This document shows positions 1 through 63,688 of a stretch of 64,000 bases of DNA, piece by piece. Source of the stretch: Amoebophrya sp. A120 (lineage: Eukaryota > Protista > Dinoflagellata); assembly GCA_905178155.1 (NCBI GenBank), contig CAJINV010000002.1, positions 434,376-498,375 on the forward strand, written 5' to 3'. Made by a program: the position numbers and the translations under genes. Every line of letters begins with the position of its first letter. The first letter of the stretch is position 1. The notes beneath the pieces were generated by a model. It saw nothing but the letters and a program-made list of their open reading frames with translations, was not told where the DNA came from and made no database searches.

Positions 1-3000
1 TATTCAACCTTCTGATTCTGTTTAGTTTCAGTGCGGTGAGGCACAGGCAGAACTTTGTGGTTACCACTCAAACCTCCTCCGTCAACTATCCGGGAGGAAT
101 CTGCGGCTATCGCCCCTTGCGCGATTTGTTTCCCCTTGGAAAGCTCGTCTGCTTCCTTTTTTTCCCTTTCCTCATTGTCGTTCTTGTTTCCCTTTCCAGC
201 AGAAGTAGTCGTACGAGCACAGTTTGACGAAGATGCATTTCTGTACACAACGGCCGTGTCTTCCCACTTCTCCGTTGTAATCATCCCCCGCTGGTTCTGG
301 TTGTAATTCGAATATGAATAATCGCCCGAGCATGTTGAAATAGGCTGCTTTTCTCGCCCAGAAGTTTTTCCTTGCGACGACGTAGTATTCTCAACAGAAG
401 AACGTTGCGCAGAAGAACGTGGACTGCGAGCAGCGGGCGCATAATTTGAGATACAATCCTCGACCTGCCGGCAATCATTATACGATCCTTTCTTGTTCTT
501 GTCAGGCCTTTCCGCTGCTCTTCCTCCTTTGTTATAGCCGTCACCAGATTTAGAATTGTTTTTCGAGGTTTTACTTTTCGACGCCCCCTCGCCACCTTTG
601 CTGAACCACACGGAATTTTTGTTGCGTGGATGATCTATTTTGTGGCTCTGATCATGTGTCGCGAGGACCGAAATGGAAGTAGGAATTATGTCCTTTTCAA
701 CAACCAATTCGTCCGTTTGTCGGCGATCTTCTTGATATTGTTCCTTTCCATGGCGGCTAGTGCCACTGCCGCCTTGTTCCTTTCCGCTAGTACTTTTAGA
801 CGAGGACATCTTCTTTGTGTTCGTGTTCAGGTGATCCGCGCCGCTTTTTTTGTCTTCAAGAATTTTTCCAGACGATGTTGAGGAACTGCAACTGGTGGTT
901 ACAACTTGAACATCAGGAATTGTTGCTGGTTCTTGTCCCGCACAACGACCTGCTGTTGGTGGGTCTTGATGTCCCGCACAACGACCTGCTGTTGGTGTAC
1001 TACTGTACTAAGTGGAATTTTGCAGGAAACGGGAAAATTGAAAAAAATTGCCCCCTGTGCTGGATGGGATGACGGCGACGGCGGCTGGGAGCGGGGACAA
1101 CGCGGCGGTCTTTCTTACAGTTTGTTCTCATCAAAAACCATCTACACTACAGGTACAAGGAAAGTCCTTCATCAAAGTACATTCCACAGGTCCAAATAAG
1201 TCCACAAATAAGGTACAAGCAGCTTACCTCGCACAGGGACCCGCGTTTCCGCTCCACACACACACACTACGATACAAATCATCACAGAAAGAAGTGCTCT
1301 CATCTGTTATTGTTCAAAAAATCCTCTGCACTACTCACAAATAAATCCAAATAGCACATATACTACTAGGCGGCTACCACTACCTCACCGGGCTTTACCA
1401 CGTCCCATGGCGCGGCAAGATCCCCCAGTCCTCAACTCACTGCAGGCACTTGACCGTGACCAAGATGTGTTGCGCCAGGTGGTGCAACAGAGCTACAGCC
1501 TGGCGACAGACCCATTTTGCTCGTGGCCATGGTCCAAGGCATGGCGGCGTTGGTCGGGCGTTCTAGCGGTGGGTAAGTTTAACAATGGTGAGCCTGGCGA
1601 TATTTGAGATGGTTTGAAAGTATGAGTAGAGCTGTATTCGTTGATGGATTTTCAATCTCTTGATGTTTGTGCTAGTGTAGTTCCTCCGTAGTGTGTGTGT
1701 GTGTGTGTGTGGGGACCCGGCCCGACCAAGAGCGGCGAAAGGTACCTGTTAAAAGTGAGTGCTTTTTAGTATTTTCAGACGTGAATGACGCCGCCTTGAC
1801 TCCAGAAAAGGCGGAAGAGAGTGGATGAAGAAGTGCAGGGCCTGGATGCTTCTGGAAGGTCTGCTCAAGGTCGGAGCTGCGGCGACATTACCTTACCTGT
1901 CGAGCGGCTGGAGGGGAGCAATTTTTTTCAAAATTCCTGTTTCCTGCAAAATTCCCGTTAGTACTGGGTCTTGTCCCGCACAACGACCTGCTGCTGGTGT
2001 ACTGGCATCAGCATTTTTTGTTTCATCACCCCCTCCAGTCCTCTGCTGAAGCCAGTCAGAAAACCGGGGCGACTGGTGGTTTTTGTCTTTACTATTACCG
2101 CCTTTGCCATTGCCTTTGCCACCCTTGGACGTCATCGTGTGGTCCTTGCTTATTTCCTTGTTGTTCGTCTCCTGCTCTACAAGTCCGTGGTGCTGGGACG
2201 ATGGGTGTCGTGTTTTACTGTAGTTGCCAGCTGCACTGGATGAGAAATTATTAGCTGCATATGAATTCTCCTGGTGTTGTTGCCACGAAGCTCCGGACGA
2301 CGCATGAGTGGCACCTGGACCTGATGATCCTTGATGTCCCTGGTAATAATCATTCCAGGCTTCACCTTCAGCTTCTTTTCCTTCTCCTCCTCCGGCACGC
2401 TTATTGTATCTGCCAGATTTTCTGCGCGCAGCAGCACCTGCACCAGTACCAGTAGCAGACCCATCGTGATAACAGCCACTGTAATAGTCGGTCGCAGCAG
2501 CACCAGTACGTGGAGCAGGCCTCTTGTTCATATTTTGACTCTCTTCATGCCACCAGCAGCTGTCTGGCAAGCGATTCAGTTGTGTGCCTGTGCCCTCTTT
2601 CATCGTCGTCGTACTAAAGCTGGCTTCGTTAGTACTAGCATTGTTTCTCCCCCCTGGGCCCCAGGTTCTCGTGCCGCATGCCGAGTCATAATGATCGAGG
2701 TATTTGTTGTAAGAACTGGCGCAAGAACTTCTACCAGGAGATGTATTCAATCCACCGTGGAGTTGTTGCTGTTGCTGTGTACTACACCTTCTTGGGGCTG
2801 CGGGAGGCGGTGGGGGTGGGAGCGGCCGAGTGTTGTTAGAACTCGCCATACAGCCTTGCTGTGATAGGAAATTGTGGGTAGCACTACTGCTGTTGATGTA
2901 CCAAGAATGTTGGTGGCCCGAGTTTTGTTGTTCAAAGTTGTTGTATATCGAATGCAAAAATGTCTGGGTCTGCAAGATTCTGAGACTTGTCATGCATTTT

Positions 3001-6000
3001 TTGCATGACCCATGATGTCTGTGATGTGATGCATGCCCTAGCATAACAGATTTTTTGAGGGCTTCTTGATGCCTATTCCGCATGACAAATGCCCTCTCCG
3101 CGTAGGAAAAATTACATTCCCATTGCTGCTCATCCAATACAGATATTTTTGGAATCCAAATGCAGCAGCACAAGTTGCATTCTTCCAGACCCAGACATTT
3201 TTTCATTTGATATTGTAGCCGGTTCCGAAGTCATACTCGCCGGCAGATATGGGAATGTCAGGATCGAAATCGACAAAATCGAAAAATTTGTGATGCATAA
3301 AATCGATACCAGTTGGAGCCCAGTTTGTAAGTGGTGCATGACAGATTTTGCCGCTACCTAAATCCAGTTTGTCATGCTGTTTAGGCAAAGAAGACTGCTC
3401 CTGTCGTGCTACTCTGGCAGCGCATTGCATACCCCTAGCCAGGCTTACAATCGGTCTCATTTGCCTGCCCGCCAATACAGGTCTTCAGTGCCCTACATTT
3501 TCTGCATCGCAAATTTTTCGATTTTGTCGATTTCGATCCTGACACATCCATAGCAGAAGGGTAAAAGTTGTAATTCATCTTGACTCGACGTCCAGCACCA
3601 ACAGATCCTGGTCCTGCACCCGCGACTCCCCCCGCATTATAGTTGCTGTCGGTCGTCGTGTAAAAACCTTCGTAATCTTTGTACAACCCAGCACTTGTAC
3701 CGCTACTGCAAGAACCACTTCCACCACCGCCGCTGCCGGCCTGGCTTGCTGTCACCACCACGGCTGTTCCATTATACATAGTTGCACTATCGCTGAAAAT
3801 AGCACTTGATAAATCGATAGATTTCTTCGGGTGCAAATTCTGCTCCCGGAGTTGTGAGAGGAAGGATTTGGTCTTGGACAAGAGCGCAGATGACTTCCCG
3901 TTTCTTTGCGTCTCCATAGAAGTACTACTGCAGCCGGCTTCATCAAAATCTTCGTCCTCGTCATCTGAAGATGGCACTCGGTTGTTGAAAATGTTATCCG
4001 CAGTTTTTTTCACGTCCAGCGCCGTGCTGTGCGCGCGACTGAGGGCGGGATGCAGGAGTTTACTTTCACGCGCCGGATGAACAACTTGTGGCCCGGATTT
4101 CGACTTTCGTTGCGAAGCACGTACGTCGCCCCGACGATCTTCGGCCCCTTTGTCCTCGACAGTAGTTACAGTTCTATCACGACCCTGGTGTGCTGCGACG
4201 TTGGAGTTGCTACTGCACTGGCTAGTAGTGTAGTCCACCTGCTGGTGCTTCGGTTTGCAGCTCACGTTGGCAGAAGTTGTACCAGCAGAAGGGTGCTCCT
4301 TCTGCTCGATGAGCTCCTGCTGCTGCTCGTCTTCACATGTTGTCAGCACCACTACACCTTGTGTAGTCCTCATACTGCGGCGAGCAGGATCAGAAATAGC
4401 ACACGGCATCAGCGGCCCACCGGAGCTAAAGCTTCCCTGATTGTCTTGTTGTTGCCAGCTGGTTTCAATTTTTGGCGCTTCAGCTGCTGAAAACACCAGA
4501 TCCGAGGCGACCTTTGCTCTAGTCGCCTTTTGTTCTTCTTGTTCTTCTTTTCCAGCTGTGCGGCCGTCGTTGTTCTTTGCAGTACTCTCGGTATCGTCCT
4601 CGCGGGAAGAACGGTTTGAAGGTAGAGCACGGAGGTCTTCTGTCTTGTTCCCCGCCGATAGGTCCTTATTTTTACACTCAACTTCTTCCGTCACGGCTAC
4701 TGTACTAGACCTTCCCTCCTCCGGTACAACTACGCTGATAATACTATTCGACGTAACTACCCGAGGTACAACGCTTGTTTGAGCTGCTTCCAGTGAGGAT
4801 ATTAACGGAAGAAACGGGGACTGCATCATTGATGTCCCTGCACCTCCTGTTCCTGCGTAAGAAAAGTAACCCTTTCCCGGGCTCGGGCTCGGGGTTTGTC
4901 CGATGGTGGGAAAACTCCTGTCACTTTTCAGCACCGCTGGGGTTGCGACGGGTGTGTACGCGGGATCAGACGCTCGTTGATGTGCAGGTGTCGTCGACAT
5001 GATAGACGCACCTCCGGGACTGCCATGCAGCGAAGCACTTAACATCAAGTTGCGACAACTCGGCGACGCGAGAACTTGTTGCTGATACAGCGGAAGCACC
5101 CCTGGTATAATAGCTGGTCCTTGCGAAGGCGTGGAGCAAGACGATCCCGGTCCTAAAATTGTTCCTGCTGGAAAGCAAGAACTCATAGAGCTACTATTCA
5201 AACCGTAGCCAGCGCCAATCTGTGACAGACAAAATTCTGCACTTGTAGATACGGAAATCCGTCCTGTACTGGCGAATTCTGCTAGAAGTTTTGAAGCGTG
5301 GGGATTTCGCGGAGTTGCCGTAGTCGGATGTTCTTGTTGGGCTGTGGTTATTTCATTCCGCTGCGGATCTTCATTTTGCGTAGTAGGAGATGTTACAGCT
5401 ATAGTGTTGTTCATCGCAATAGCATTACCCGTTGTGCTGGCTCGCTTGTCTAGTATTTCATCTTCAACAGCGCCGCTCTCCTGCTTTACAACCTCACACG
5501 GTTGCTCCTCCTCTACAGTTGCTGCTGGTTTCGCTACATCAGAAGCTTTTGGAAAGCACGAAGCGTCCGTTTCGGCTTGTTCCACCTGCTGTTGCTCATG
5601 GGCCACCAAGACATCATTGTTCAATACAGTGGCGTGGTCACATTGGTCCTGAGCGGCCTTCGTAGACGTGGTTTTCTCCGAGCTTGCATCGCTGCCTTTT
5701 GCAACGGTGCGCTGCAGATTTAAATCGTCCAATGGCTGTTCTTCCGCGACCTTATTCTGACCTTCTGGGGCGGGATGACCATGATCAGGGGCCGATGCAG
5801 TAATTGTTTCCTCTTCATCAAGAATCTCAGCATCATCCTTGTTCGACGCTTTCATCTTGTTCATTTCCGCTTCACCAGAGGATGAACCTTCCTTCGGTAG
5901 TTCTTGTCCCTGCTCTTCTTCCTCCTCAACGTAGTTCCCAGCGGCTTCGTCCAAAAGCCTCTTCTCTGCGCTGTAGTTCGCGCTCGGCATGACCATTTCG

Positions 6001-8582
6001 TCTAGCAAATTCCGAGGTCCTCGATAAAAAACAACCTCGCCGCTGATGTTTCTCGTATGCATTGTGGTGTAACAGCCGCGCTCAAAAGGCGAGCACATGG
6101 CGGACGACGGGGTGCCGTTGCCTACGGAGTGGGGGGAGTAGGCCGCCGCGTGCTGCTGGTTGTAGTAGTTTTGGTAAGAAGTATGGTCGTGTAGTTGCTG
6201 CTGATGCAGTTGTGCCATGGCAGTCGTGGGGGAAGCCGCCGCGAAATGATTCACCAGAGACAGGCCACTCGAAGACGACGTCGAAGACGTTTGCTGCATA
6301 TCCTCAAACGACCCTGATATCGCCATCGAGTTGTGGTTGTGCTCGTAGCTGTAGTTATTTGTGTTGCCAAAATTGTCATGCTGGAATGAAATGGCACTCA
6401 TTGCCGTTTCCAAATAACCTGCTTGATGTTCCCCGCGAGGCGTGCCGGTACTGGTCGCGAAAGTGAACGTCTTACTGATACAAGAACTGCCGGTGCTATG
6501 TAATACGCCGCCGTGGCTGTGGTCATCGTCAACATGGGCCGCAACTTTGTTACAACCGGCTGCGGAGCCAGAGCAAGCTGCTGTTGCCGCCGGCTCAGGC
6601 AGGTACACACCGCCCTGCGTTGTACTAGAAGAAGCTGTGTCGGCGGCGGCTGATGCATTTGTATCTCCTCCTACACGGCTAGTACAGCTTGCAGAACTAC
6701 CACTGTAGTCTTCGTGGCCTGCACTGTGAAGAAACTCGTATTGATGTTCCTCGTTGTAAAAATTTTCGCAGCTGTTGCTCTGGTGGTCACCATGATGATG
6801 ATACCAAGAGTTGTTGTATCCAGCACAAGAACTTCGGTCATGATTCCCACCATGACTATCAAATGCAAAAATGTCTGGGTCTGGAAGAATGCAAGTTTGT
6901 CATGCTTGTCTGGCATGACTCTTGAACCTGTCATGCACGTTACCCAAGAGCCCCACTTTGCTGTCATGCAGAAACGCAGTTTGTCATGCAGAATAGGCAA
7001 CACCTAGAAGCTCAAAAGCTTGTCATGCTGAGCCAGCACTTGTGGCCTCTTCATGATACGCCACCCAGCATCACAAGTTTCCAGACCCAGACATTTTTAC
7101 AATCCATAATGACCGAAGGTGTTGACCGATTGCGCTGATGATCCCGACGATGATTCAGGGTTGTTGTTGGCGTAAAAATGCTCCTGGTGTCCTCGGTGCT
7201 GGAAATCATTTGTCCTGCTCCGGTTAAATAAACCACTATAGCCGCGGCCACTGAGTAGTCTACCTGCTGCTGGTGCACCACCGCCCGAGTCTGTCACTGT
7301 CACACCTGCTGTGTCTGTGTCAACATTGTCGCGGTCGTCATTTCGTGCCGCGACCTGGTCACCATGCGCCGAATTATTCGAATTCTGTTCTTCCATGAAC
7401 GGACTCAAAGTGAATTCCCGATTCTCGTGCAAGTGATGCGGTGTACTGGGAAAAGTGGCGGAGAGGTCCAACACTCGCTGATAGTTATCGTCCTCCATAT
7501 CGTGACTGCTTTTGTCACCAGACGCAGGAAAGCTTCTAGACAGCATGTCGTGGCTGTCCTCGGCTTCTTGCTGGGCTGCTAGTGGTGCCTGGGAGATGGT
7601 ATATGTTTTTTGTAATTTTATTTTTTCCACCGGACCTGCCCGGGCCTGCTTTTTATTCAAGAATAACGAGTGATGATCATCGTCAATTTATTGCAATAAC
7701 AGCGGTTCCTAAATCGTGGGTCGCAGGAGACAAAGCTCTTTTCTGTTTCTAATCAACTCAGCATCGCAACGTCAAAATAACCTGATCGTAGCCCTGCTGT
7801 GAAAAATAGCTCGTCCTCTCCCCCTCCACTCTCGCCTGCGTATGCGCATGCCCCGCCGGCCGCCTATGAAGATCATACTCCTGAAATTCATACCCGCAAG
7901 AACCGCCACTGCTAGAAGTACTACTTCCCCATGGGAAATGATGATGATGAAGACTTCGGTGTTGTAGTTGCTCCGCCTGCTGTACTTGCCGCGCTTGCGG
8001 AACGAACTCGACCGCGTCGGAGTTCAATCTGTTCAAACTAGTACTAGGCTTCAACGTCGAATAAAATTCCTCACTACTTCCCGCCCCTACTACAACTTCT
8101 TCTCCGCGAGTATGTAGTTCTTGCGCCGGCTCTTCAGCAGGTGTATAATGTTCCTGCGACGGCAAGGTTACACTAATCTTCGTTCCCTCAGCATTATAGC
8201 CACCTGTCTGATGCGGACCACGATGTTGACCACGACCCGTGCTGCTGCGTGCTTCTTTACCAATAAAACCAGCAGAATTGATAGTAGAATCAGGCACGCC
8301 GTCAGCCTTGCTTCTATTCCCGCCTTCGGGAACTTCGCCGTCGCCAACCGTGGCCGACGTGCTGGCCTGCGCCTTATTCTTTCCTTTCTTCTTGCCCATT
8401 CTGGTGTCTACTTCACCGGTGCGTGGGGATCGCCTTGACGCACTATCTTCTAGTGAAGAAGAAGATGAAGTAGATGATTGCTTTTTCTCCTTTTCCGGAT
8501 AGCTCTGCTCGCCAACCGTGGCGGAACGGGGCAGTTTCGGAAGGTGTATGTTACGCGGCTTACTTCCGGGTCTGGTCCGCAT
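1..8582 (-). CDS. Very large (>2,100 aa) low-complexity/disordered protein, multi-exon, 3' end runs off window start
   Basis: ORFs 7758..8582, 7097..7660, 3435..6608 and 1893..3206 plus an open frame 1007->1 join in frame. Removed: GT-AG intron 7589-7781, introners 6857-7108, 3248-3552, 2946-3212 (each plus one TSD) and GT-AG intron 1008-1964. S/T/Q/E/G-rich, no recognisable domain; start codon uncertain. Confidence 0.75.
1006..1963. mobile_element. ~0.96-kb non-autonomous TIR element (MITE-like) forming an intron
   Basis: ~50-bp imperfect TIR gtactaagtggaattttgcaggaaacgggaaaattgaaaaaaattgcccc / ggggagcaatttttttcaaaattcctgtttcctgcaaaattcccgttagtac. Minus-strand GT...AG 1964-1008 restores the host frame. 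Confidence 0.75.
2946..3212. mobile_element. Introner family A (TIR core AAATGTCTGGGTCTGGAA)
   Basis: TAT...ATA ends, TSD TTGTA; removal gives ...GTGYN-NFEQQ in frame. Confidence 0.92.
3248..3552. mobile_element. Introner family C (TIR TATGGGAATGTCAGGATCGAAATCG)
   Basis: Long TIR, TSD GCAGA; removal gives YPSA-GEYD in frame; second copy at 22359. Confidence 0.9.
6857..7108. mobile_element. Introner family A
   Basis: TSD ATGAC; removal gives FGH-GGNHD in frame. Confidence 0.92.
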
Positions 8583-12170: not shown

Positions 12171-15100
12171 TGGCACAGTTTGCTCGCATATGAACTGCAA
12201 AAGTATCGTACTAGTAGTAATTGCAATACAAATTAGCTCAGCATGACAAATGGAATTTGTCATGCTGTTTTGCCTTGGGGTGGAGATTTGTAATGCATGA
12301 TTGCAATTACTACGAGTACGATACTTTTGCACAGGATATCGCAACAGTTTCTGCTTCAACTCCGTTTCCAAATTGTCGCAATTTTGGTTCTATGAACTGC
12401 AAAAGTATCGTACTAGTATAAATCGCATGACAAAAAATTTCCTCAGAATGGAAAATGGAGTTTGTCATGCTGATTTACCTTGGGAACCTCCAGATTTGTC
12501 ATGCATATCTGCGATTAGTACGGTTACGATGCTTTTGCATTTGATAGGTTCTCCAGTTTTTCTCTTTCCAATTTCTTTTCCCTTTCCAATTCGGAAATTC
12601 TCTCCCGTTCTTGTTTCTCCCGAGCTGTTTCCTCTTGCAGTTCCAACTGCTTTATGCATTGCAAATATGTCTGGGTCTGGAAACTTGTAATGCTGCGTTG
12701 GGAATTATAGTGAGTGCTCTGTAATGCGCAGCCAAGCATGAGAAATATCTGCGTTTCGTTGTGTTGCGTTTTTCGCATGACAAACTGCGTTTTCGCATGA
12801 CAGACAAAAGGGTCTCTTCTTGGACACGCATCACAAACTTTTTGGTCATCCCAGACAAGCATGACAAATCGCGCAATCTTCCAGACCCAGACATTTTTGC
12901 ATTTGATATGCTTTTTATACACTCGTGCCTTCTCCGCCTGAATTTGCAGCAACAACTTCTCCCGAATCCGGCCGAATTTCTGTTGCAGCAGTTGCAGCTC
13001 GGTGTTTGCATTCTCCTCTTCGACTTCCTCCTTTTCGTCCTGATCGATCGTTCGCGGGTCGCGGGTGAGCAGCTGTTTTTTTTTATTTTCATTTGCACAT
13101 TTGTGCCATGCATGACAAATTCAGTTTTTATTGCAAATTTCTGCATGACAGATCAACACATCTTCATCCTCGCTTCAATTTTTCTACCTTGTCCTTGAAA
13201 TTCCCCACTTCCTCTTCCAATTCAGCCTTATGAACTGCAAAAGTATCGTATTCGTATAAATGTAATTACAAATTTCTTCAGCATGAGATAATAAAATTTG
13301 TAATGCTGATTGACCTTAGGAGAAACATTTGTAATGCATGACTGCAATTACTACGAGTAGGATACTTTTGCACAGGATAAGCCTTCTCGGTTTCCATTTC
13401 CTTCAAAATCCCCTTGTATTCCTTGATCTTCTCACTCCTTCGCCTCTCCAACGTGAGCAATTTCTGTTCCTCCTTAAACAGTATGAAATGCAATAGAACT
13501 AACGTACTAGGTAGTACAAATCGCATTACACTGCTTGCATCTACAGCATTTCAAGTGTGTTTATTTATTCATCGTCTTATCTTCATCTTCATCGTCATCT
13601 TGTGGATCGTCGTATTGGAACAAAGGGAAAACCCGTCGGAGAGCGAAAAACCTCAGCGCATATCGCTGGAAAATGTTCGTTTCATATTTTTCAATTTTTC
13701 GTTTTTCACATGAGAATTTTGAGAGCATCTAGTAACGGTTCAAAAAACAGCACGGCGAGATTATGAAAGTCCAAAAATTGTTCTTGCTGTTGCACCCTAC
13801 CGCGACGTACTTTGAGCGGTGCTTCTCGACTCTATGTTCCTGCATCGATGAAGAGATTTTTGCTTTCAAAAATTGAAGAAGTTACGACATTGGGGTCGTC
13901 GGGTTTGAAGATGTTTGTAGTGTGTTTGCGAAAAGTTGCGAAGTGTGCGCCAAGTTGCCGATCTAGCATTACAAATTCGCAAGATCGTCTTCATCTTCAT
14001 CATCTTCATCTCTTCTTCTTCTTTTGATTTCAACGAAAATAAAATAACCATCTTGTCGACAACATCACTTGCATTGCAACATCAAACGTCACAAGCTTCT
14101 GCACGTTACCATCTGCGTGCGTAAAACTTCCAAGACCACTCGCAGATCAGATCAACATCAAACCACTACTCGCGTGTACAGCCGTGCTACGAACAACATC
14201 CGCGTCGGGAAAGTGCAAAAAGCTCCGGGGGTTGAATCGCTGCCCACACTTGCCGGGGAGGTTATATCGCTTGCATGAACATCGTGTTTTACAATCTCAA
14301 ACAAACCCCACTCAGGGCGGTGAGATCGGCAGGTGGTTGAGGTTTCTCCGGAAGCAGGCCCGGATATACCGCGCCCGATCCCCCTGGTTCGCAGGCCACT
14401 GCTGCCCGTTGTTGTCGTTCTGCACTGCTGCGTTTTTCCGGTCGTCGTGGATGCGGCCGAGGATGGTAGTCAGACGCGCCACAGTGAGGGTTTGGAGCTT
14501 CTCCACGATGCTGTCGTTCCCCGCCGCGGCGAAATGGGAGTCGTTTCGCGCCGCAGGAGACATAATCGAGAAAATCCATCCTTTCTGGTAGTCATCGTCC
14601 ACATTCCCGGCACCCCAGTGCACGTCAACGCCGTCAATCCGCTGCACGATGGGTGCGCCGTTGATACCTGCTTGGGGGGCAGGCTGTAGGTTTTGGTTTG
14701 CGGCGGGGGCTCCACCAGCACCACCTCCTGCTGCGCCACCTCCTGCGCCAACACCTCCTGCTCCAAAACCTCCTGCTCCACCACCTCCTGCTCCACCACC
14801 TGCGCCTCCGGCAACACCTGCACCTCCACCAGCCCCTCCACCAGCGAATCCCTGTTGTTGCTGAAACGGGCCTTGTTGCTGGAAAGGAGCTTGCTGCTGG
14901 AACGGGCCTTGTTGCTGGAACGGGGGCTGTTGCTGGAAGGGAAATTGTTGCTGAAACGGAGCGGCTTGTTGCTGGAACGGAACTTGTTGTTGGAAAGGAC
15001 CAGGTTGCGGGAACTGCTGCTGGAGAGGAAACTGCTGTTGCTGGTTGTACTGCGGGAAGGGTTGGTTTTGGTACTGGGCGGGGTACTGCGGAACGGGTTG

Positions 15101-22358: not shown

Positions 22359-22665
22359 TGTGGGAGTGTCAGGTTTGAAATCGCTAAAGTTGAAATAGTT
22401 TGTGATGCATGAAATGCAAGCCGCAAAATGCTTGTCTTGCTGAGTAGGCAAGGGAGCCAGATTGTAGGCCTGTTGATGGGTAGCAATAGAGCTGCTAAAG
22501 TAGCATGACAAAAGGCGTCTTCCTTGCCCAAACAGCATGACAAACTGGGTTTCGGCTCTTCCCAAATTTGTCATGCGCCACTTGGAAACTGGACACCAAC
22601 GGGCATCCACTTTATGCATGGCAAATCATTTCAACTTTGTCGATTTCAATCCTGACAGTTCCATA
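22359..22665. mobile_element. Introner family C
   Basis: TGTGGGAGTGTCAGG...CCTGACAGTTCCATA, TSD AGTTC. Confidence 0.88.
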
Positions 22666-50798: not shown

Positions 50799-51519
50799 TT
50801 TTTCGCTCGGGTGTGGTTTGGCTTTGGTCCTAGAAGTCCTGAGGTCGGGACGTGAGAAGTCCGTCGACGGATTTTTGCGGAGCAGGGGTGTTGAAGGTCA
50901 GTTCGTCGAACAGCAGGAGAAGGCGGCGGACAGAGAAGTGACTCGTCTCACATGGCTAGCAACTACATGGCCGGAGCTGCTGAAGCGCATCATCTTCACG
51001 CCCGCGTCCGCGAAACACGGCGTTGCTCTTGGGCATTCAACACATCAGGAATGCGAATACATGCCGCGCTTGTGTTGCGACGATGAATAAACACTGGACG
51101 AAAAGACGGCACAACAAAAGCGGAATGAAGACTACTGTCATAAAACTATCCGTGGTTCTGGTTGCGCCGCGCTCCTGCTGCTCGCCCACACGCAATCGTA
51201 ACTGAGCGCTGTGGAGGTCGTCACAAACTCAACTCAAGACACCCACACAGCCCTCATCTCATTCACATCACAACATCTTTTGTATGTCCACTGACTGTCG
51301 CTCACGGTCACGCGGCGCTCCTCACCTTCGCTTCCACGTGTCGCAAAGAAAATGAACACGAAGATACTTCGGAGACAACAAGCCGAAACAAACCAGAGCC
51401 AGTCTTAGTCAGTCAGTGCCCACTGTAGGCGTTTCCACATCAATAAACCCGACCAAAATTTTATACCCGCCCCCGGAAAGACGAGGAGAGACAAGGCAAC
51501 AAACGTTGGACCACCCCAC

Positions 51520-52677: not shown

Positions 52678-53801
52678 TTACGAAGCCAGCGTTTTCCACA
52701 GTGCCTGAAACACGAAGGAGAATTCCCTCTCACTGAACGTCGTAGTCCGAAAATCAAACTCCGTACCCGCAAGAATTTTCATGTTCGCCAACACCTTCTC
52801 CAATAATTCGTCTAGATCTTCCCGAATGTGCTTCTGCTCAACGTCGCCCCCGCCAAATCGCACCCCAAACCCTGTCACATCCAGTAACTGCATATGCCAG
52901 GAAAAAAATTAACCTTCCCTACCCAGTTTTTGCATGACAGACACAGAACTTGCTACATGTTTTGCATGACAAATCGGATGGGGATGGTTAATTTTCAGGG
53001 AATACTGCAGCAAAACTTCGACTCCGCACACATCCAGCAGAAAGGCCTTCACCTGGTTTTTCGTTATCCTCGGTTCGTAGCCCGCGTCGTTGGTCTCACA
53101 ATGGTGTTTCTCCATGTATCTTTTACAAACGTGCCGCTGCTCCGAATCGCTCCACTGATGCAGGAAGTGGGTCTCGAAGTGATAATCGTGGTTTTTGCCG
53201 GAACTATTATTATGGTGTGTAAGCTTCTGTACCACGGCGTGGTGATGTGGTGGAGGGAATGATGTAAGTCTCCTGTCAATTGTTGTGCCATGATCTTCGC
53301 CAATGCCGTCGAGAGCGAAAGCCCCTGTAGAAGTAGAAGAAGTCCTGCTTGACGATCTGTACCGCTCGCCATTTTGCATGGAGCGGATCGGCGTGAAGCT
53401 GTGATTCAACTTGCCGTGGGGTTTGTCAATGACGAACCGGTCAGTTTGCTTCATCTTTGTAGTCGTTGTAGCTGGAGAGGGCGGGGTCTTTCCGTTTCGA
53501 CGGCCTCTTTTCGACGCGCACGCGCTTATCTCCCGGGCCATGGGAAGCACGACCGGCGTGAACGAGTGAAGCGATATATCACACAGAAAAAAGCAGCCAG
53601 GTCAAATTTGTAATGCAAAAATAAATATGCAAAAAAATCTGTATTACATAACCGAAACAACATGCTATGTGGCCGCCCATGCCAGATTTTTCTGCGTATT
53701 TATTTTTGCATTACAAATCTGCCCTGCCTGCTTTTTTCTCCGGGATACGATACATCCGCCGTTGGGGACTTGGAACGGGGACGGGAGGTGGCGGAGGTCA
53801 T
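52678..53801 (-). CDS. Hypothetical protein; C-terminal half possibly degenerate EF-hand-like
   Basis: MTSATSRPRSKSPTADV-SLHSF...VEVLLQ-LLDVTGF...LWKTLAS* after removing two introners; ITKNQVKAFL and FSEREFSFVF resemble EF-hand exit helices (weak). Confidence 0.7.
52893..53004. mobile_element. Short introner (112 bp), singleton TIR
   Basis: TSD CTGCA; TAT...ATA; GCATGACA motifs. Confidence 0.87.
53577..53747. mobile_element. Introner, singleton with long TIR
   Basis: TSD CGATA; ~55-bp imperfect inverted repeat. Confidence 0.88.
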
Positions 53802-55942: not shown

Positions 55943-58900
55943 TCAGCCCCCAAACAGTTTATCCCACAACCGGGTGACCTTCGGCCACAGCCCGTCTTGC
56001 AAAAAAGTGTCGTTGTAAAAGCAGACCGCGAGCTGCCAAACGTATCAAATGTAAAGGTGTCTGGGTCTGGAAGACTGCGCGATTTGTCATGCAGCTTTTC
56101 CATGGCCCATGAGGTCTGGAATGCAAGCCCTAGCATGACAGATTCTGTGCGATCTTTCTCATGCCTATCCTGCATGAGAAACTGCCTCCCGACTTGGTCA
56201 AGAAAACTGGACGAATTTTGGTAATCATGCAACACAGATTTTTGCATGTTTCAGATTTAGCATGACAAGTTGCATGCTTCCAGACCCAGACACTTTTACA
56301 TTTGATAAAACGTACGCAAACGCCATTGCTGCGGAGATCAGGTGCAGCTCGCGGAGGAAAAAGATGAACAGCTGGAGAATTTTGACGAAGTGCAGCGCGA
56401 ACAGATATGCATCGCAAAAGTATCGTAAAAAAACTTGTACTAATTGCAGATATGCATGACAAATCTTCTTCCTAACGTAAAACAGCATTACAAATTGCAT
56501 ATAGATTTGATTGTCGTTGTGCTGAGCTTACTTTGTAATGCGTTTTATACTAGTACAATACTTGTGCAATGCATAACAGAATCCAAGTCACGACACTTGC
56601 TATGTGGTCGTTCACGATGGTCTCCGCGAGCTCTTCTGCGGAAGATGAGGAGGCTCCTGTTTGATTTAACATCCCTCCGTATCAAATGCAAAAATGTCTG
56701 GGTCTGGAAGATTGCGAGATTTGTCGTGCTTGTCTGGCATGACCAAAAAGTTTGTGATGCGTGTCCAAGAAGAGACCTTTTTGCCTGTCATGCAAAAACG
56801 CAGTTTGTCATGCGGAAAACGCAACACAAAGAAGCGCAGACATGTCTCATGCTTGACTGTGCATTACAGAGCATTCACTATTCCCAACGTAGCATTACAA
56901 GTTTCCAGACTCAGACATTTTTACATTTGATACTCCGCCCATGTCATCCGGGGACGAGGATGCCCCCGCCCCTCCCTGGTGATGATGGTGGTATCCTGTG
57001 CAAAAGTATCGCACTCGTATCGTACTAATTGCAAATATGCATGACAAATGTTATTCCTAAAGGCAAAACAGCATTACAAATTTCACTTTCCTCCTTGCCA
57101 AAATTTGTGAAGCAATTTATACTAAGTACGATGCTTTTGCAATGCATATGTGGTCTAGAGTCGCCGGAGAGATAATCGGAGAGTCGGGTATGTTGTGATG
57201 TAACTGACCAAGAACATTGGCGCCAGCGTTATAACTGTTCCCACTATTACTTCCACCTCCCATCGGCGGTGAGTCCACGCCTGAAAACGCTCCTGCTCCT
57301 CCTGAGGACCGGTCCTGATCCAAATTCAAATTCGATGGGGGGGAGTCACCGCCAGCAGAAAACTGCTGCTGCCCATGCTGGTTAAATACTTCGACGCTCC
57401 CTATCAAATGTAAGAATGTCTGGGTCTGGAAGAATGGAAGGTCTGTCATGTTCTGCCAGCATGACCCCAAAGTCTGTCATGCACGTTACCCAAGAGCCCC
57501 GTTTTTTTGTCATGCAGAAACGCAGTTTGTCATGCAGACTAGGCAACACCTCGAAGCTCAGAAACTTGTCATGCTGAGCCAGCACTTGTGGCCGCCTCAT
57601 GATACGCCAACCAGCATCACAAGTTTCCAGACCCAGACATTTTTACAGTTGATACTTCCGTCCCCCCCGCTAGGTCGGGTGCTGCCCGTGATGGTGGGCG
57701 AGCTTCCGTTGATGGGGCTTATCGTGAGAAAAAAGAAGTGTATACAGCTTACACTCTGTGTTGCAGATCAAACCAGAGAGCCTTGCTCTGTCATGCCGAA
57801 GATGGTGCACTGGAGCCCAGTTTCGTCCATGTTTTTTCCCTTATAGCATCTCTGCATTGCAAGTTCTGTGTGTCATGCCGAGCAAGAATATTGTGATGCT
57901 GGAGTTACTACAACAAATATGTAAGATGAGATCCTAGCACTGTTCTTGTATGTAAACTGTATAACACTTTTTCATCTGGGATAGTGCTGCCGTGACAAGT
58001 AGTACCATTGTGGTGACGCGACAGTGAGGAAGAAGTCATCTCGACGTTGTTTCTGCTACCAGAAGAACCACTACCGCTGGTACTATTGTTTGCGCTGTTA
58101 TTTCCTGGCGAAACGGTGTCAAACATCGTTTTGAAGAATTGCAACAGCCCCGGCCAGACGTAGTCGGGTAGGATCCAGGTGGAGAGGAAGCTGTCAAACG
58201 CAATTATGCACTGCAAAAGTATCGTACTCGTATTGCAATCATGCATTACAAATCTTTTTGTTAAGTCAAATCCGCATTACAAATTCCATTTTTCATGCTG
58301 ACGGAATTTGTCATGCGATACTAGTACGATGCTTTTGCATTTCATAGCAATCATGGGGAAGCAAATGTTGATATACGCTTCGGGAGACAACGCCATTAAG
58401 ACGAGACTCGTATCAAGTGCGAATATGTTCTGGGTCTGGAAACTTGTATTGCTAAATGGTCATGATTGGGTGAGCCTTTCAGTGCAGTGACGCATGACAA
58501 AATTTTCGAACGCTCTCTCATGCACAGCACACATTACAAACTGCGACTCTGCATCACGAAAGTGCGACGCTTTATTCGCTGCTCAACATGCAAGACAGAC
58601 TTCTCAGGAATGTGAGACACGCAATACAGGTTCAACCTTTCCAGACCCAGACGCATTTGCACTTGATAAATCGCGGCGCGACGCAAAATTCCGTAGGCGT
58701 GGGTTGATGTGATGTCGTGGTGCCACTTCTGCCAGGAAATGGGCTTCGTGGGGGTTGAGGATGGAGAAGTGAGAGAACAAAACGCTCGCAACAAGGGAGA
58801 GCAAATAATTTTGGCCCGCAGTGCGAGCGCAAGCGACCAGGTTTCGGTCGGACTAGTTTCGGGGTCGTTTGGTCGTGTAGTTGTTTCTGTGTAGTGTTCT

Positions 58901-60504
58901 TGGGGGTTTGATGATGTAGTCGATGAGGACGTAGTTCCCGGATGTCCTCCGCTCATGTTGTTTTCGCCACGTTGGCTGTGGTGCTGTTCAAAATCATGAT
59001 TATCTCCTTCTCCGATAGTACCGCTGCTACGACCGTTTATTTTACTCACAGCTCTACTATTGCTATTCTCCGAGCTTCCACCGCCGATGTTACTCATTTT
59101 TCTACTTCCGCCAAAACATCTCAACAGAGACATGACACAACCGCAGCAGAATCGCCAAACTTCCCAGAAGTCCGTGCTCCGGAGGGCCCGCTCCGCCAGG
59201 CTGTGCGCTTTGCTGATAAAGTGCAGGAGGAAGCCGACGAAGACAAATCCTTTCATCGGCACGGTGAGGTTGTGCTCCTCGTAGATTGTTTCCGCTGGCT
59301 GGAAGTTGTAGGAGGAGGGGTATGGTACCATTTCGTTGCTGTTAGTCATGTCCATCATGTGCTGTTCTTCCGTCCCGAGTTCTGCCACTGCTGTTGTGTA
59401 TTTGGTGGTGACCAACACTCTATGAATTGCAAAAGTATCGTACTCGTGTAAATGCATTACAAATTTCCTCAGCATGAGAAATAAAATTTGTAATGCGGAT
59501 TTACCTTAGCAAAAGGATTTGTAATGCATGATTGCAATACGAATACGATACTTTTGCACAGGATACACTCCCTTGTACCACAACCCATCGACATCGTACA
59601 GGTCCCACAGACAACTCATATGGATTGCAAAAGTATCGTACTCGTAGCATCAGATGCATTTATGCATTACAAATCTCTTTCTCAATTACTGGAGACGTAT
59701 ATTCTCACTTTTACGGTCCAAGAAACTTTTTCTCAAGGTAAATCAGCATTACAAATTTAATTTGTAATGCTGGGCTAATTTGTAATGCAATTTGTACGAG
59801 TACGATGCTTTTGCAATTGATAGCTCAGCCATATCGTTGATTTGACCGAAGAGATCATGAGGATCACCAAGGGGAGACCGTGCATCACCACGTTTTCCAG
59901 GTTTCCCACGGCCTCCTGCAAAAACTCGCCGAGTCTGCCCCAGTCCCTCAGCACAAAGCAGCTTGTGAAGAACACCAGACAATATCCACAGTAAATTTCT
60001 CGTACACCTACGCCCGCGTACTGTTTCATCTGCATGACAAAACTTTTCTTCGTTCCTACTTAGCATGACATTTGGCGGGAGGGGGACGCTCTACTAAGTT
60101 AGCGTGCGCATCGTGTACGGGAAAAAATTTGTGTTGCGTAGACAGGTAAAGCAGATCGGCTGGAAGAGTTGCTGCTGGAAGTAGCTGTTGAGCGACTCAG
60201 CATCGGGGGGCACCATGTAGCTGTATTCGTAAAAAAAGTCCTCCGGCGGTGTGAAAAATGTTGCCGAGGAAGCAACTCCGGCGGTGTGAAGATTGTGAAA
60301 CGGGGGGTTCTTGTAGTGGTTGTGCACCTGCTTGGAGGAACCGATCCCAGTGTAGTCGTACATGGAGTTGTCAAGAGAAGCTGCGTCATTCGCATCTTGT
60401 TGTAAACTCGCGACGACTTCTGCGATTGGGTTATTCAATGCTCCATGGGCGGCGGCCTGGTGCAACATCTCCTGTAGCTGGTCGTGGACCACAGATGACG
60501 GCAT
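55943..60504 (-). CDS. Putative multi-pass membrane protein of unknown function
   Basis: Several hydrophobic segments (YCGYCLVFFTSCFVL, LPLVILMISSV, GFVFVGFLLHF, ILQLFIFFL, AMAFAYVWQLAVCF); ends ...LWDKLFGG*; 10 introners; not every junction checked. Confidence 0.68.
56043..56307. mobile_element. Introner family A
   Basis: TSD AAACG. Confidence 0.92.
56406..56575. mobile_element. Introner family B
   Basis: TSD ACAGA. Confidence 0.9.
56680..56932. mobile_element. Introner family A (reverse orientation of 12653-12908)
   Basis: TSD CTCCG. Confidence 0.92.
56992..57148. mobile_element. Introner family B
   Basis: TSD GGTGG/TGTGG. Confidence 0.88.
57402..57654. mobile_element. Introner family A
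   Basis: TSD CTCCC/CTTCC. Confidence 0.9.
57720..57983. mobile_element. Introner, singleton TIR, aged
   Basis: TAT...ATA, TSD GGGCT/GTGCT; joins HGS-PING. Confidence 0.8.
58205..58346. mobile_element. Introner family B
   Basis: TSD GCAAT. Confidence 0.92.
58411..58668. mobile_element. Introner family A (diverged)
   Basis: TSD ACTCG/AATCG. Confidence 0.87.
59421..59565. mobile_element. Introner family B
   Basis: TSD CACTC. Confidence 0.93.
59619..59822. mobile_element. Introner family B with ~50-bp internal insertion
   Basis: TSD ACTCA/GCTCA; internal TTTCTCAA duplication. Confidence 0.88.
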
Positions 60505-61771: not shown

Positions 61772-63688
61772 TCATTCCTCATAGCGGTACATTCCGCCCG
61801 TGAGATAATAAAGTCCACTGTCGTAATCTTCGACCGCTTCAGATGAAATATCTTCTCCTTGGTTGAATTGTTTTTCGGCGAAGCTACGATCGTCGCCTGT
61901 AGTTGTTCTCGTAGTTGCACCGCTCGTCCTTGTTTTTACCGGCGAATGCACAACATTTTGACTTCCTGTCATGGTGGTCCTCGTCTGCGCCACAGGCTGC
62001 ACGACAGGTGTTGTCATCAGCTCCCGCACGATGAACGACATCGCCCCACCGGAAAACTCGTCCCGTAACAGCACTTTTGCTGCGGCTGCATGGATATCAC
62101 ATGCAAATATATCTGGGTCTGGAACTTTGCTAGACTTGTCATGAAGGTTTTCCATGGCCCATATGATCTGTAATGGAGGACCTAGCATGACAGATTCTGC
62201 GCGATCTCTCTCATCCCTATCCTGCATGAGAAACTCCCTCCCGACTTGGTCAAAACTGGACGACTTTTGGTAATCATACAACACAGATTTTTGCATGCTT
62301 CAGATTTAGCATGACAGGTTGCATTCTTCCAGATCCAGACATTTTTACATTTGATAATGGAAACTTTCCCCCGCGTAGCGGTTCAGGTTGCGCTCGCAGT
62401 GGCTGTCCGGCTGGTAGCAGAGCGCCTTTTTCACGCTCTGGAGACCGGCTTGGAGATCAAATGGAAAAAAGGTGTTTACATTTTCATTTACGCTGCACTG
62501 ATTTTTCGTTCGTCAATTTGAATTCAGCAAGACAAATTCCTCTACATGAGAGAGTTGCGAGAAAACTTGTAATGCAGAAATCCTGTTACGGGAAAACACG
62601 TACTAAAACCAGGCTCCTAGGCATATCCGGCATGGAACGGCTTACGTGACTTGTTTGGCCTGCAACACAATGTGTAAAAAAATGTATAAACACATTTTTC
62701 TTGCGATACTGCAGCTTTCGCATTTTCGTGGAGTCAGGGAGAATTTCGGTTTGGAGGTACTGGACCAGGTCGAAGGGGGATGCGTTTCTGTTTTGCGACG
62801 ATCCTTGGTTTTGGAGATTGAGCTCCTCATTCAGAAATCGTTTTTCCGGAATGCGGATTAGAATTTCGTCGTCCCAATCCCACGACGTCCAGGAAGTGGC
62901 GGCCGGCGAAGATGATGCTGATGCTGTCATCGGTATTTTATTTTCAGATGGGGGACGACCTTCATGGTCATCTTTATCCTCGAGGTGTTGAGCCACGTGC
63001 GGAACAAAATCGGGAGCCGTCCTAACGGTATTCGAGCTCCTGCCAAATCTGCTGTTGAACGGCAGCCCAAGCTTATGGAGAGAAAAAAGTTCGCGTTCGC
63101 CACAGTCACGACTAATTTGGAGGCTTTGCGTCACGATTATACAAATTTTTTAGCATCACAGCTTTTTCTTGTATTGCAGAAAAACTAAGGGAAATCCCGT
63201 ATGAAGTTTGGCTGTGATGCATTTTTACGCATGACAGGCATTTTTTGTATTGCAGAAATGTTGCCCATGAGTGATCGTGACGAACTTTTTTCTTTTGATA
63301 AAGCTCGTCGTCAATTAAGACTGGGATGCAGTCGGATGAGACCAAAACGGAGAACAACCTGCGCGTGCTTCTCGCGTATCAATTGCAAAAATGTCTGCGT
63401 CTGGAGGAATGCAGGTCTGTCGCGCTTGTCTACTCACATGAGAGTGGAATCTGTAATGAGTGAGCAGGGAAAGCCCTCTTGCCTGTCATGCGAAAGTGCA
63501 GTTTAATATGTTTACCATGCGGAAAGCGAAAGACAAAGGAACCCAGAAACTTGTTATGCGTGGCTGCGTATTCTTGGGGTAAGTCCACAAGCCACAAACT
63601 AGCATCACAAGTTTCCAGACCCAGATCGATATAATTTGCAATGCATATCGCATCGCCGGGAACGATTGCACAGAAGACGGATTTCTGG
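61772..63688 (-). CDS. Exostosin family (GT47) glycosyltransferase, 3' part (5' end outside window)
   Basis: Spliced translation QKSVFCAIVPGDARSTRRLFSVLVSSDCIPVLIDDELGLPF...WDDEILIRIPE matches the exostosin motif S.FC..P.GD....RLF.....CIPV......LPF. Confidence 0.85.
62095..62356. mobile_element. Introner family A
   Basis: TSD ATGGA. Confidence 0.92.
62455..62708. mobile_element. Decayed introner-derived intron
   Basis: GATCAAATG...GCGATA ends, flanks TTGGA/CTGCA; removal plus 5 nt joins RKLQ-AGLQ in frame. Confidence 0.7.
63074..63300. mobile_element. Introner, singleton TIR
   Basis: TSD AAGCT; joins DDEL-GLPF. Confidence 0.88.
63377..63647. mobile_element. Introner family A (diverged)
   Basis: TSD TCGCG/TCGCA; joins PGDA-RSTRR. 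Confidence 0.88.

What the first reader, a model, noticed from the sequence alone, without database searches (positions are those of the whole stretch)
2946..63647. About 55 TAT...ATA, 5-bp-TSD introners acting as non-canonical introns with precise removal of one TSD
Seen: about 19 family A (~252-280 bp), 21 family B (mostly 142-172 bp), 2 C, 3 D, 2 E and 8 singletons. Almost all start TAT, end ATA and are flanked by a 5-bp repeat of unconstrained sequence, with no consistent GT/AG. At every junction translated, deleting element plus 5 nt restores the frame, including conserved WD40 (TIMI-WD, DKTL-KVW) and exostosin (DDEL-GLPF) motifs. Established: IR/DR-bearing introner elements with non-canonical splice sites have been described in Amoebophrya, with an unresolved splicing mechanism. 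Inference: one strict rule (TAT/ATA, 5 bp, stem) unites unrelated families. Excision could be at RNA level, or even IES-like DNA excision.
Basis: partly seen in the sequence, partly recalled or inferred. Interest (0 to 1): 0.75.

Follow-up and report, generated by a model that had tools for sequence, protein, structure and literature searches.

The report
Fixed cut rule for hairpin introns
About 55 small mobile DNA elements, of a kind already described in the marine parasite Amoebophrya, interrupt genes here without normal splice signals, and transcript assemblies lack each tested one exactly, in a way that fits a single cut one base before and four bases after the element, likely made by a relaxed splicing machine.

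Summary
In detail: 55 TAT...ATA elements with terminal inverted repeats and 5-bp target duplications (TSDs); 39 strict hits against 0 in 8 controls. They match the introner elements published for Amoebophrya A120 (Farhat 2021), so the elements are known; that paper left the cut position unknown.

New here: all 15 joints shown in transcript contigs remove element + 5 nt. Mismatched TSDs leave one common register, predicted before the second lay: intron = last TSD base + TAT...ATA + first four TSD bases. It does not flip with element orientation, so it follows transcription. The T of TAT becomes intron +2, like host GTAT donors; +1 and the acceptor are free. The same contigs lack plain GT-AG introns, so they are mRNA. 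IES-like DNA excision and reverse-transcriptase artefact are unlikely. An 8-bp box, GCATNACA, occurs in 54 of 54 elements.

Best reading: a modified spliceosome (0.55); rival: spliceosome-independent cut and ligation (0.33). Limits: one RNA sample, contigs not reads, all genes on one strand, no lariat data. The scan noted similar signal-less introns in other genomes, not this register.

The parts
2946..3212 (-). Family A element, exact 5-bp TSD
   Evidence: ORF restored
3248..3552 (-). Element of the two-copy family, exact TSD
6857..7108 (-). Family A element, exact TSD
12189..12338 (-). Family B element; empty paralogous site with one TSD copy near 25730
12391..12546 (-). Family B element, same site as 25802; the empty paralog has 3 extra bases
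12653..12908 (-). Family A element; empty paralogous site near 24225
13229..13379 (-). Family B element, exact TSD
13482..19105 (-). Family B element with exact TSD, carrying a nested 5.46-kb insertion; would be a 5629-nt intron (not tested on RNA)
19164..19317 (-). Family B element, TSD mismatch at + position 3
19418..19567 (-). Family B element, exact TSD
19782..19929 (-). Family B element, exact TSD
22359..22665 (-). Element of the two-copy family; sense 3' end ACA instead of ATA
22776..23045 (-). Family A element, two TSD mismatches; the empty paralog near 12985 equals the right-hand copy
24276..24420 (-). Family B element; empty paralogous site near 12915
24469..24622 (.). Truncated family B copy without matching flanks (not among the 55)
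25802..25950 (-). Family B element, exact TSD
26064..26329 (-). Family A element, exact TSD
27724..27872 (-). Family B element, exact TSD
27948..28183 (-). Singleton element, exact TSD
28244..28394 (-). Family B element, exact TSD
28484..28763 (-). Family A element (divergent), TSD mismatch at + position 1
28801..29062 (-). Family A element, exact TSD
29450..29594 (-). Family B element, exact TSD
29646..29956 (-). Element of the three-copy family, exact TSD
35281..35533 (-). Family A element, exact TSD
38375..38702 (.). Long family B element, exact TSD; host gene not established
44280..51082 (-). WD40 gene: 13 elements and 4 GT-AG introns; modelled mRNA 3006 nt equals the X4 contig length; 734-aa ORF
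45082..45208 (-). GT-AG intron with decayed inverted repeats and TSD-like flanks in the same register
   Evidence: contig piece ends at 45079
45295..45466 (-). Family B element, exact TSD
45538..45760 (-). Singleton element, exact TSD
45881..46054 (-). Plain GT-AG intron (donor GTATTG), absent from the X4 contig by length
46185..46386 (-). Plain GT-AG intron (donor GTATTA), absent from the X4 contig by length
46506..46784 (-). Element of the three-copy family, exact TSD
46873..47087 (-). Singleton element, TSD mismatch at + position 1 (joint not shown)
47131..47386 (-). Family A element, exact TSD
47441..47585 (-). Plain GT-AG intron (donor GTACTT), absent from the X4 contig by length
47676..47933 (-). 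Family A element, exact TSD
48024..48276 (-). Family A element, exact TSD
48338..48499 (-). Family B element, mismatch at + position 4; contig piece starts at 48500 without differences (offset at most 3)
48943..49151 (-). Singleton element; one of five whose summed loss (1291 nt) matches the X4 contig
49288..49557 (-). Family A element, same group of five
49737..49988 (-). Family A element, same group of five
50037..50315 (-). Element of the three-copy family, mismatch at + position 3 (joint not shown), same group of five
50431..50686 (-). Singleton element, same group of five
52893..53004 (-). Shortest element (112 bp), singleton; contig piece starts at its end
53577..53747 (-). Singleton element; contig piece stops at 53571, before its left TSD
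56043..56307 (-). Family A element; joint 56037>56308, skips 270
56406..56575 (-). Family B element; joint skips 175
56680..56932 (-). Family A element; joint skips 258
56992..57148 (-). Family B element, mismatch at position 1; joint 56987>57150 forces offset of at least 1
57402..57654 (-). Family A element (minus orientation), mismatch at position 3; offsets 0-2
57720..57983 (-). Singleton element, mismatch at position 2; offsets 0-1
58205..58346 (-). Family B element; joint skips 147
58411..58668 (-). Family A element (plus orientation), mismatch at position 2; offsets 0-1
59421..59565 (-). Family B element; joint skips 150
59619..59822 (-). Family B element, mismatch at position 1; joint 59614>59824 (3 of 4 runs) forces offset of at least 1
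59983..60140 (-). Singleton element, sense 5' end TAC, mismatch at position 5; joint skips 163 (2 of 4 runs)
62095..62356 (-). Family A element; joint skips 267
62455..62708 (-). Singleton element, sense 3' end ATC, two TSD mismatches; joint 62450>62710 (3 of 4 runs), offsets 1-3
63074..63300 (-). Singleton element; joint skips 232
63377..63647 (-). Family A element, mismatch at position 5; joint skips 276
63689..64000 (-). Probable further element running off the window (sense 3' end ATG; not among the 55); contigs leave the window sequence at 63688 in 4 of 4 runs

Best explanation
These are short non-coding elements with inverted ends and 5-bp target duplications that transcript contigs lack exactly, at joints that all fit one register (intron = last duplicated base + TAT...ATA + first four duplicated bases), likely cut from pre-mRNA by a modified U2-type spliceosome. 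Steps: (1) insertion as DNA duplicates 5 bp of any sequence, in either orientation (duplication shown by empty paralogous sites; the transposase is inferred, not found). (2) Both ends carry the same signal, TAT-S-N6-AAA, so either end can serve as the 5' end (shown). (3) The transcript is cut 1 nt before TAT and 4 nt after ATA (the only register common to all joints; that every intron uses it is inferred). (4) This puts T, A, T at intron +2, +3, +4 as in the host's GTAT donors, so the spliceosome would read TA as a donor while ignoring G+1 and the AG (inferred). (5) The 3' site would be set by distance from the element end; the first A of ATA sits at -7 and could be the branch point (speculative). 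The mRNA regains the pre-insertion sequence, so any insertion is silent. My odds: RNA-level removal 0.92, single register 0.85, spliceosome as catalyst about 0.55 overall.
For: 15 of 15 joints shown (2 more not shown) skip element + 5. Eight have mismatched TSDs: three force at least one left-copy base, two allow at most one; the common offset is 1. A ninth (48338) agrees. The prediction was noted; chance that all nine allow offset 1 under independent uniform cuts is 0.009, but three of the nine were partly seen beforehand. Family A copies 58411 and 57402 lie in opposite orientations and both exclude the mirror offset 4. The X4 contig over the WD40 gene (3006 nt) equals 13 x (element + 5) plus four GT-AG introns removed. 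Those four donors all begin GTA, three GTAT. Sense 5' T and A are invariant in 54 of 54. In 204 elements from other loci, changes at end positions 1-2 fall 10 times at the sense 3' end and 2 times at the 5' end (P 0.039; 13 to 2 with the window, P 0.007). All nine commonest A120 site pairs in Farhat Table S4 have T second and any first base (aligner bias possible). A120 keeps most spliceosomal proteins and U2, U4, U5, U6; U1 was not detected. Tunicate precedent for a relaxed U2 spliceosome.
Against: Splicing depends on a non-Watson-Crick pair between first and last intron base (citing Parker and Siliciano). Here +1 takes all four bases (AT 18, GT 13, CT 12, TT 12 of 55) and +1/-1 pairs show no clear excess of G-G or A-C in 202 elements (both 1.17-fold, table P 0.07). 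GT..AG at this register is not enriched (5 of 148 loci elements). No branch site at a fixed distance: the nearest sense GCATNACA lies 39-157 nt from the 3' site and 7 of 54 lack it. The four RNA runs are one sample of one study, contigs only, and 'RNA' is the tool's guess. All window genes are on one strand, so no plus-strand joint was seen. A mixture of registers (0-1 at some introns, 1-3 at others) is not excluded. One 5' end has lost A+3 in a strand-called locus (L022).
Confidence: 0.55

Rival explanations
1. Same RNA-level register, but cut by a spliceosome-independent endonuclease and ligase that recognise the paired element ends (3-bp TAT/ATA helix, loose positions 4-7, then a longer stem), as suspected for euglenid nonconventional introns.
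For: No constraint on +1, -1 or -2. Ends are predicted to pair, with 1 unpaired base 5' and 4 unpaired 3' (two folds, z -1.9 and -2.2). Euglenid introns also have an offset terminal stem, TSD-like repeats and leave as circles. U1 not detected in A120.
Against: The register places TAT exactly on the host's GTAT donor. A GT-AG intron with decayed repeats fits the same register (45082-45208). The 5' TA is more conserved than its 3' partner, which pairing alone would not predict. Fold z-scores are modest and reflect the inverted repeats.
Confidence: 0.33
2. Reverse-transcriptase template switching between the 5-bp repeats across a hairpin; the joints are cDNA artefacts.
For: Short direct repeats around a hairpin are the classic setting for this artefact (recalled). 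Only cDNA-derived contigs were seen.
Against: A switch needs homology copied from the downstream repeat, yet only its last base is kept, and at 56992, 59619 and 62455 that base differs between the copies. Thirteen elements must go to make one WD40 protein. The element-free form is the long contig in all four runs.
Confidence: 0.04
3. Programmed DNA excision (IES-like) at some life stage yields element-free genes.
For: Precise loss of element plus one repeat copy. Only one element-bearing run was laid (X1), stage unknown, and contigs drop rare variants.
Against: The element-free contigs also lack GT-AG introns, three of them without repeats. The cut is asymmetric and does not flip with element orientation. 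End conservation follows transcript direction. X1 pieces 57629-58232 and 59786-62141 run through whole elements without differences (X1 may be the window's own source).
Confidence: 0.04
4. The cut position varies between introns within the repeat and the single register is a coincidence of a small sample.
For: Only five joints bound the register tightly. Farhat et al. describe splice sites as variable relative to the hairpin.
Against: All nine informative sites allow offset 1 (P 0.009 under uniform cuts); the five joints named came out as written.
Confidence: 0.04

Closest known systems
Introner elements / non-canonical introns of Amoebophrya sp. A120 (Farhat et al. 2021, PMC7789003)
   Same: Inverted repeats starting TAT, seven variable bases, then at least three A; 3-5-nt direct repeats (5 bp in their Fig. 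S19 legend); many families; about 240 nt; RNA-supported; no GT-AG.
   Different: The paper calls the splice position variable or unknown and the repeat length variable. Here the repeat is always 5 bp and one register fits all joints. The shared GCATNACA box is not in the sections I read. Figures 3, S19, S23 and S25 were not visible and may show part of this.
Fritillaria borealis non-canonical MITE-derived introns (Henriet 2019 via PMC11282704; Soo 2026, PMC13326754)
   Same: Transposon-derived introns with TIR and TSD removed by an adapted U2 spliceosome.
   Different: Mostly AG-AC and AG-AT ends, at least 55% able to form near-isosteric terminal pairs, U1 present, duplicated U2AF. Here only +2 to +4 are fixed and the last four bases are free.
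Euglenid nonconventional introns (via PMC11282704)
   Same: Offset terminal stem, TSD-like repeats, no GT-AG, mechanism unresolved.
   Different: Stem at +4..6 with -8..-6 and pyrimidine|purine junctions there; +2..4 with -7..-5 and no junction consensus here. Their circles were not testable here.
Introners that co-opt splice sites from the TSD (Symbiodinium, Florenciella; Gozashti 2022, PMC9860276; A120 families in Gozashti 2025, PMC12130899)
   Same: TIR DNA elements whose intron borders lie inside the TSD; two A120 rows seen are labelled 'TIR DNA, Unknown, co-opt both'.
   Different: Those recruit real GY/AG sites from the target; these need none (0 of 54 with a GT-AG register).
Ciliate internal eliminated sequences (recalled, no call)
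   Same: Precise loss of an element plus one copy of a flanking repeat restores reading frames.
   Different: IES leave the DNA; here removal is seen only in contigs that also lack spliceosomal introns, and the cut follows transcript direction.

Membership tests
Amoebophrya A120 introner elements | Terminal inverted repeats of 8-20 nt | tested here: met
   39 exact-TSD hits with at least 12 of 20 complementary bases, 0 in 8 controls; per-position pairing
Amoebophrya A120 introner elements | IR begins TAT, seven variable bases, then three or more A | tested here: met
   T 54, A 54, T 53 of 54; A at positions 11-13 in 48, 49, 52 of 54; definition
Amoebophrya A120 introner elements | Direct repeats of 3-5 nt at the borders | tested here: met
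   Always 5; in other loci 56 of 61 exact at k=5, 1 at k=4, 0 at k=6
Amoebophrya A120 introner elements | Removed from transcripts without GT-AG | tested here: met
   15 of 15 joints shown; 0 of 54 GT-AG registers
Amoebophrya A120 introner elements | Lies in the A120 genome | not testable with these tools
   No genome held; organism inferred only from the match to the published end motif
MITE / non-autonomous TIR DNA transposon | Fixed-length TSD made on insertion | tested here: met
   Empty paralogous sites carry one copy for 4 of 6 elements with a paralog; the other two share one site whose paralog has 3 extra bases
MITE / non-autonomous TIR DNA transposon | Autonomous partner with a transposase and matching ends | not tested
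   None sought beyond the window; Pfam on five long ORFs gave only GIY-YIG; Farhat found no transposase in A120
Canonical U2 spliceosomal intron | GT or GC donor | tested here: not met
   GT in 13 of 55 under the fitted register; T at +2 in 55 of 55
Canonical U2 spliceosomal intron | AG acceptor | tested here: not met
   AG in 3 of 55; 17 of 202
Canonical U2 spliceosomal intron | G-G or A-C pairing of first and last base | tested here: inconclusive
   1.17-fold each, table P 0.07 in 202 elements
Canonical U2 spliceosomal intron | Branch point and lariat product | not testable with these tools
   No raw reads cover the locus
Euglenid nonconventional intron | Pyrimidine|purine at both junctions, stem at +4..6 / -8..-6 | tested here: not met
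   +1 takes all four bases; stem at +2..4 / -7..-5; definition
Euglenid nonconventional intron | Excised as full-length circle | not testable with these tools
   Needs RNase R or non-polyA reads
Ciliate IES (features recalled) | Removed from DNA in a somatic genome | tested here: inconclusive
   One run with element-bearing contigs; contigs cannot show absence of a rare excised form
Ciliate IES (features recalled) | Cut symmetric about the element, independent of transcription | tested here: not met
   Offsets 2-5 excluded at two joints, offset 0 at three; no flip with orientation

The most novel reading that the evidence does not exclude
Most introns of this nucleus are removed by a pathway that needs no terminal dinucleotide at all: a spliceosome-independent cut-and-join (or a spliceosome rebuilt around N-T-A at the 5' end and a branch A at -7) that measures 1 nt before and 4 nt after a transposon end. 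It makes every insertion of every family silent at any site and in either orientation, and one protein reading arrays of GCATNACA boxes serves all families.
Probability: 0.33. Interest if true: 0.88.

Novelty: already known. Interest (0 to 1): 0.58.

Why it matters
The elements are published, but their splicing mechanism is an open question and the cut position was reported as unknown. A fixed register turns 'no splicing signature' into a rule: N-T-A-T donor, free acceptor four bases past ATA. That rule can be checked at once on public reads, lets gene finders place tens of thousands of junctions, tells where to look for lariat or circle ends, and explains how a transposon can invade coding exons without cost. 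The family-independent 8-bp box gives a handle on the missing mobiliser or splicing factor. I rate the system as already known and the register and box as additions not found in seven literature searches.

Tried and rejected
No whole genome is held, so no genome-wide test and no search for U1, U2, U6 or a transposase. Rfam found nothing in the window. No holder was on record as RNA. Bins without cover in X4-X7 are not used as evidence. In one search the joint table was swamped by repeat noise from X1, so element-free DNA joints could not be read. Exostosin: no Pfam hit on two exons. GCATNACA as branch site: distance to the 3' site is not fixed and 7 of 54 lack a sense copy, so I favour a DNA-binding site; the three plain GT-AG introns have no copy. 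Purine excess at +1 (G 64, A 64, C 39, T 35; P 0.02 against window exons) is post hoc and not relied on. Position-wise 5'/3' end logos beyond the first three bases show no asymmetry. Hit 34618-34911 (two mismatches) was dropped before counts; 24469 was left out of the end-asymmetry count because it looks like a deletion junction. The strand call for L004, one of the two 5' exceptions, is weak, but it was kept. A brute-force intron search timed out and its successor was degenerate; one search fixed three introns by consensus and found the fourth from the remaining length. Roy et al. 2023 (Curr Biol) is not held. One search returned no Amoebophrya paper among the 30 listed of 1635.

Full report
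1. Observation. The window holds 55 short elements that begin TAT, end ATA and are flanked by a 5-bp repeat. A strict scan gave 39 hits with exact repeats and at least 12 of 20 complementary terminal bases, against 0 in each of 8 Markov-chain controls. A relaxed scan gave 52; one weak hit was dropped and four added. Families are A (19), B (19, plus one nested and one truncated copy), a trio, a pair and 11 singletons; both large families occur in both orientations. The repeat is a true target duplication: for 4 of 6 elements with a paralogous exon elsewhere in the window, the empty site has exactly one copy; the other two share a site whose paralog has 3 extra bases. Anchoring on the internal family A core there, 61 of 64 elements end TAT...ATA (one end was partly fixed by the pattern) and 56 of 61 have an exact 5-bp repeat, 1 a 4-bp and none a 6-bp repeat.

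2. Host genes. Removing element + 5 gave the longest minus-strand ORF in 7 of 7 regions, against removal of +4, +3 or +0. The gene at 44280-51082 encodes a WD40 protein (Pfam E 1.6e-7 on its last exon). The exostosin label could not be confirmed (0 hits on two exons).

3. Transcripts. Eleven runs were listed. X1 contigs carry introns and whole elements without differences, for example 57629-58232 and 59786-62141; I read X1 as DNA, possibly the window's own source. X4-X7 (one sample, one study, 'RNA' a guess) skip the elements. One X4 contig of 3006 nt spans 44280-51082; between 48937 and 50687 it lacks 1291 nt, the sum of five elements + 5. Its full length equals 13 x (element + 5) plus four GT-AG introns of 127, 174, 202 and 145 nt; three were chosen by consensus, and the remaining 174 nt had one GT-AG solution, which gave a clean 734-aa WD40 frame. 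So these contigs are spliced mRNA. In the second lay, 15 joints were shown of 17, and all 15 skip element + 5; 12 were seen in 4 of 4 runs, two in 3, one in 2.

4. The register. After the first lay I noted a prediction: on the + strand the RNA keeps TSD base 1 from the left copy and bases 2-5 from the right copy. met it at the five joints named (56992, 59619, 57720, 57402, 63377) and at 59983, 58411 and 62455. Three joints need at least one left base, two allow at most one; the only offset common to all 15 is 1. With 48338 there are nine informative sites; under independent uniform cuts all would allow offset 1 with probability 0.009, though three were partly seen before the prediction. On the sense strand the intron is N-TAT...ATA-NNNN. 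Family A copies 58411 and 57402 are in opposite orientations and both exclude the mirror offset 4, so the register follows the transcript, not the element. All window genes are on one strand, so this rests on orientation, not on a plus-strand joint. Independent support comes from 204 elements in the metagenome loci, strand-called with a codon model (44 of 48 window elements called correctly, partly on training exons): changes at the first two end positions lie 10 times at the sense 3' end and twice at the 5' end (P 0.039, or 13 to 2 and P 0.007 with the window). Changes at the third position lie the other way (3 at the 5' end, 0 at the 3' end), a weak hint that the A at -7 matters.

5. Anatomy. 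Donors under the register are AT 18, GT 13, CT 12, TT 12; acceptors are scattered, AG 3 of 55. No element has a GT-AG register and 8 of 54 have GC-AG or AT-AC. Both ends read TAT-S-N6-AAA; positions 1-3 pair in 53 of 54, positions 4-7 in only 25, 29, 32 and 19, positions 9-13 in 43-51. The four GT-AG donors fitted to the contig begin GTAT, GTAT, GTAT and GTAC; two more seen by eye begin GTAG and GTAT (not tested on RNA). One GT-AG intron (45082-45208) has decayed inverted repeats and near-repeat flanks in the same register. An 8-bp box, GCATNACA on either strand, occurs 181 times in 12,079 bp of elements and 14 times in 51,921 bp outside, in 54 of 54 elements including all singletons, and in 198 of 204 elements of the other loci, 76 of 81 outside families A and B. 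Same-strand boxes are often 31-33 bp apart (5.2 observed against 0.8 expected per lineage-balanced set; window chosen after seeing the data), about three helical turns, which suggests a DNA-binding protein such as a shared transposase (inference).

6. Mechanism. Shown: 5-bp duplication, exact loss in mRNA contigs, a common register, direction-dependent end conservation. Inferred: a TIR transposase, not found; a modified U2-type spliceosome that reads the element's TA as +2/+3 and sets the 3' site by distance. For: the register lands TAT on the host's GTAT donor; A120 keeps 83 of 89 spliceosomal proteins and lacks a detectable U1; tunicates show that a U2 spliceosome can relax. Against: the first and last intron bases normally pair, and here they are free. 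A spliceosome-independent cut-and-join, as suspected in euglenids, remains a strong rival. Template switching is unlikely because only one base of the downstream repeat is kept, even where it differs from the upstream copy. DNA excision is unlikely because the element-free contigs also lack plain introns and the cut follows transcription; rare or stage-specific excision is not excluded by contigs.

7. What is known. Farhat et al. 2021 (PMC7789003; sections 5, 10, 11, 12, 16, passages and supplement passages read; figures not visible) describe A120 introners starting TAT, seven variable bases, then three A, with 3-5-nt direct repeats, 1954 families, and state that the border position remains unknown. 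Their Table S4 lists nine commonest A120 site pairs, all with T second; this agrees with the register but may reflect aligner preference. Their sentence on repeats lying four nucleotides on one side and within two on the other, and Figs 3, S19 and S23, may show part of the register. Also seen: PMC12130899 (passages; 2 of 58 A120 rows of a supplement), PMC9860276 (passages), PMC11282704 (section 6), PMC11453091 and PMC12005148 (passages), PMC13326754 (abstract, section 30). Roy et al. 2023 was not held. Seven searches listed no paper that fixes the cut position or names the box; most subscription papers and bioRxiv supplements are outside the library. The organism is inferred from the motif match, not shown. 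Earlier scan notes report signal-less hairpin introns in two other genomes, unchecked here; none exist for this genome.

8. Verdict. Real, and already known as a class. The fixed, direction-dependent N|TAT...ATA-NNNN| register and the family-independent box are additions that make the open splicing question directly testable. Interest 0.58.

Noticed in passing
window 13531-18991: A 5.46-kb insertion inside the family B element 13482-19105: direct repeats of about 210 bp (203 bp identical), a 7-bp target repeat that is the GCATNACA box itself, and a 1475-aa minus-strand ORF with a GIY-YIG domain (E 1.4e-5). Atlas look-alikes carry GIY-YIG, some RVT_1; no reverse transcriptase was found by Pfam. 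Penelope-like is a recalled lead.
   Followed up: partly
window 39186-39665: Inverted, 82% identical copy of 62408-62876, including a paralog of the 62455 element at about 39360-39618 on the + strand with A instead of G before TAT; a possible plus-strand test of the register.
   Followed up: partly
window 10742-13400, 22650-24440, 25029-26000: Three to four partial tandem copies of one coiled-coil-like gene end and its downstream 800 bp (90-95% identical), with different elements at different sites: insertions postdate the duplications, except the shared site 12391/25802.
   Followed up: partly
window 13073-13187 and 26908-26968: Candidate GT-AG introns on the minus strand; host acceptors here are A-rich before CAG rather than pyrimidine-rich. 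The first carries two GCATNACA boxes, as does a decayed element would.
   Followed up: partly
window 19418 and 19782: Two neighbouring family B elements have the same 5-bp TSD sequence; both read AT-AC under the register.
   Followed up: no
window about 20300-21900, 30700-31950, 51500-52300, 54000-55300: G+C-rich stretches (60-63% in 2-kb bins) between genes, free of elements, not similar to each other at E 1e-12; nature unknown.
   Followed up: no
window 34618-34911: Degenerate TAT...ATA hairpin with two flank mismatches and two boxes; possibly an old element.
   Followed up: no
X9 reads on window 56221-56307: Raw RNA reads with the same species label match family A ends at 90-95% with other flanks but no exon of the window: a relative appears to carry and transcribe family A.
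   Followed up: no
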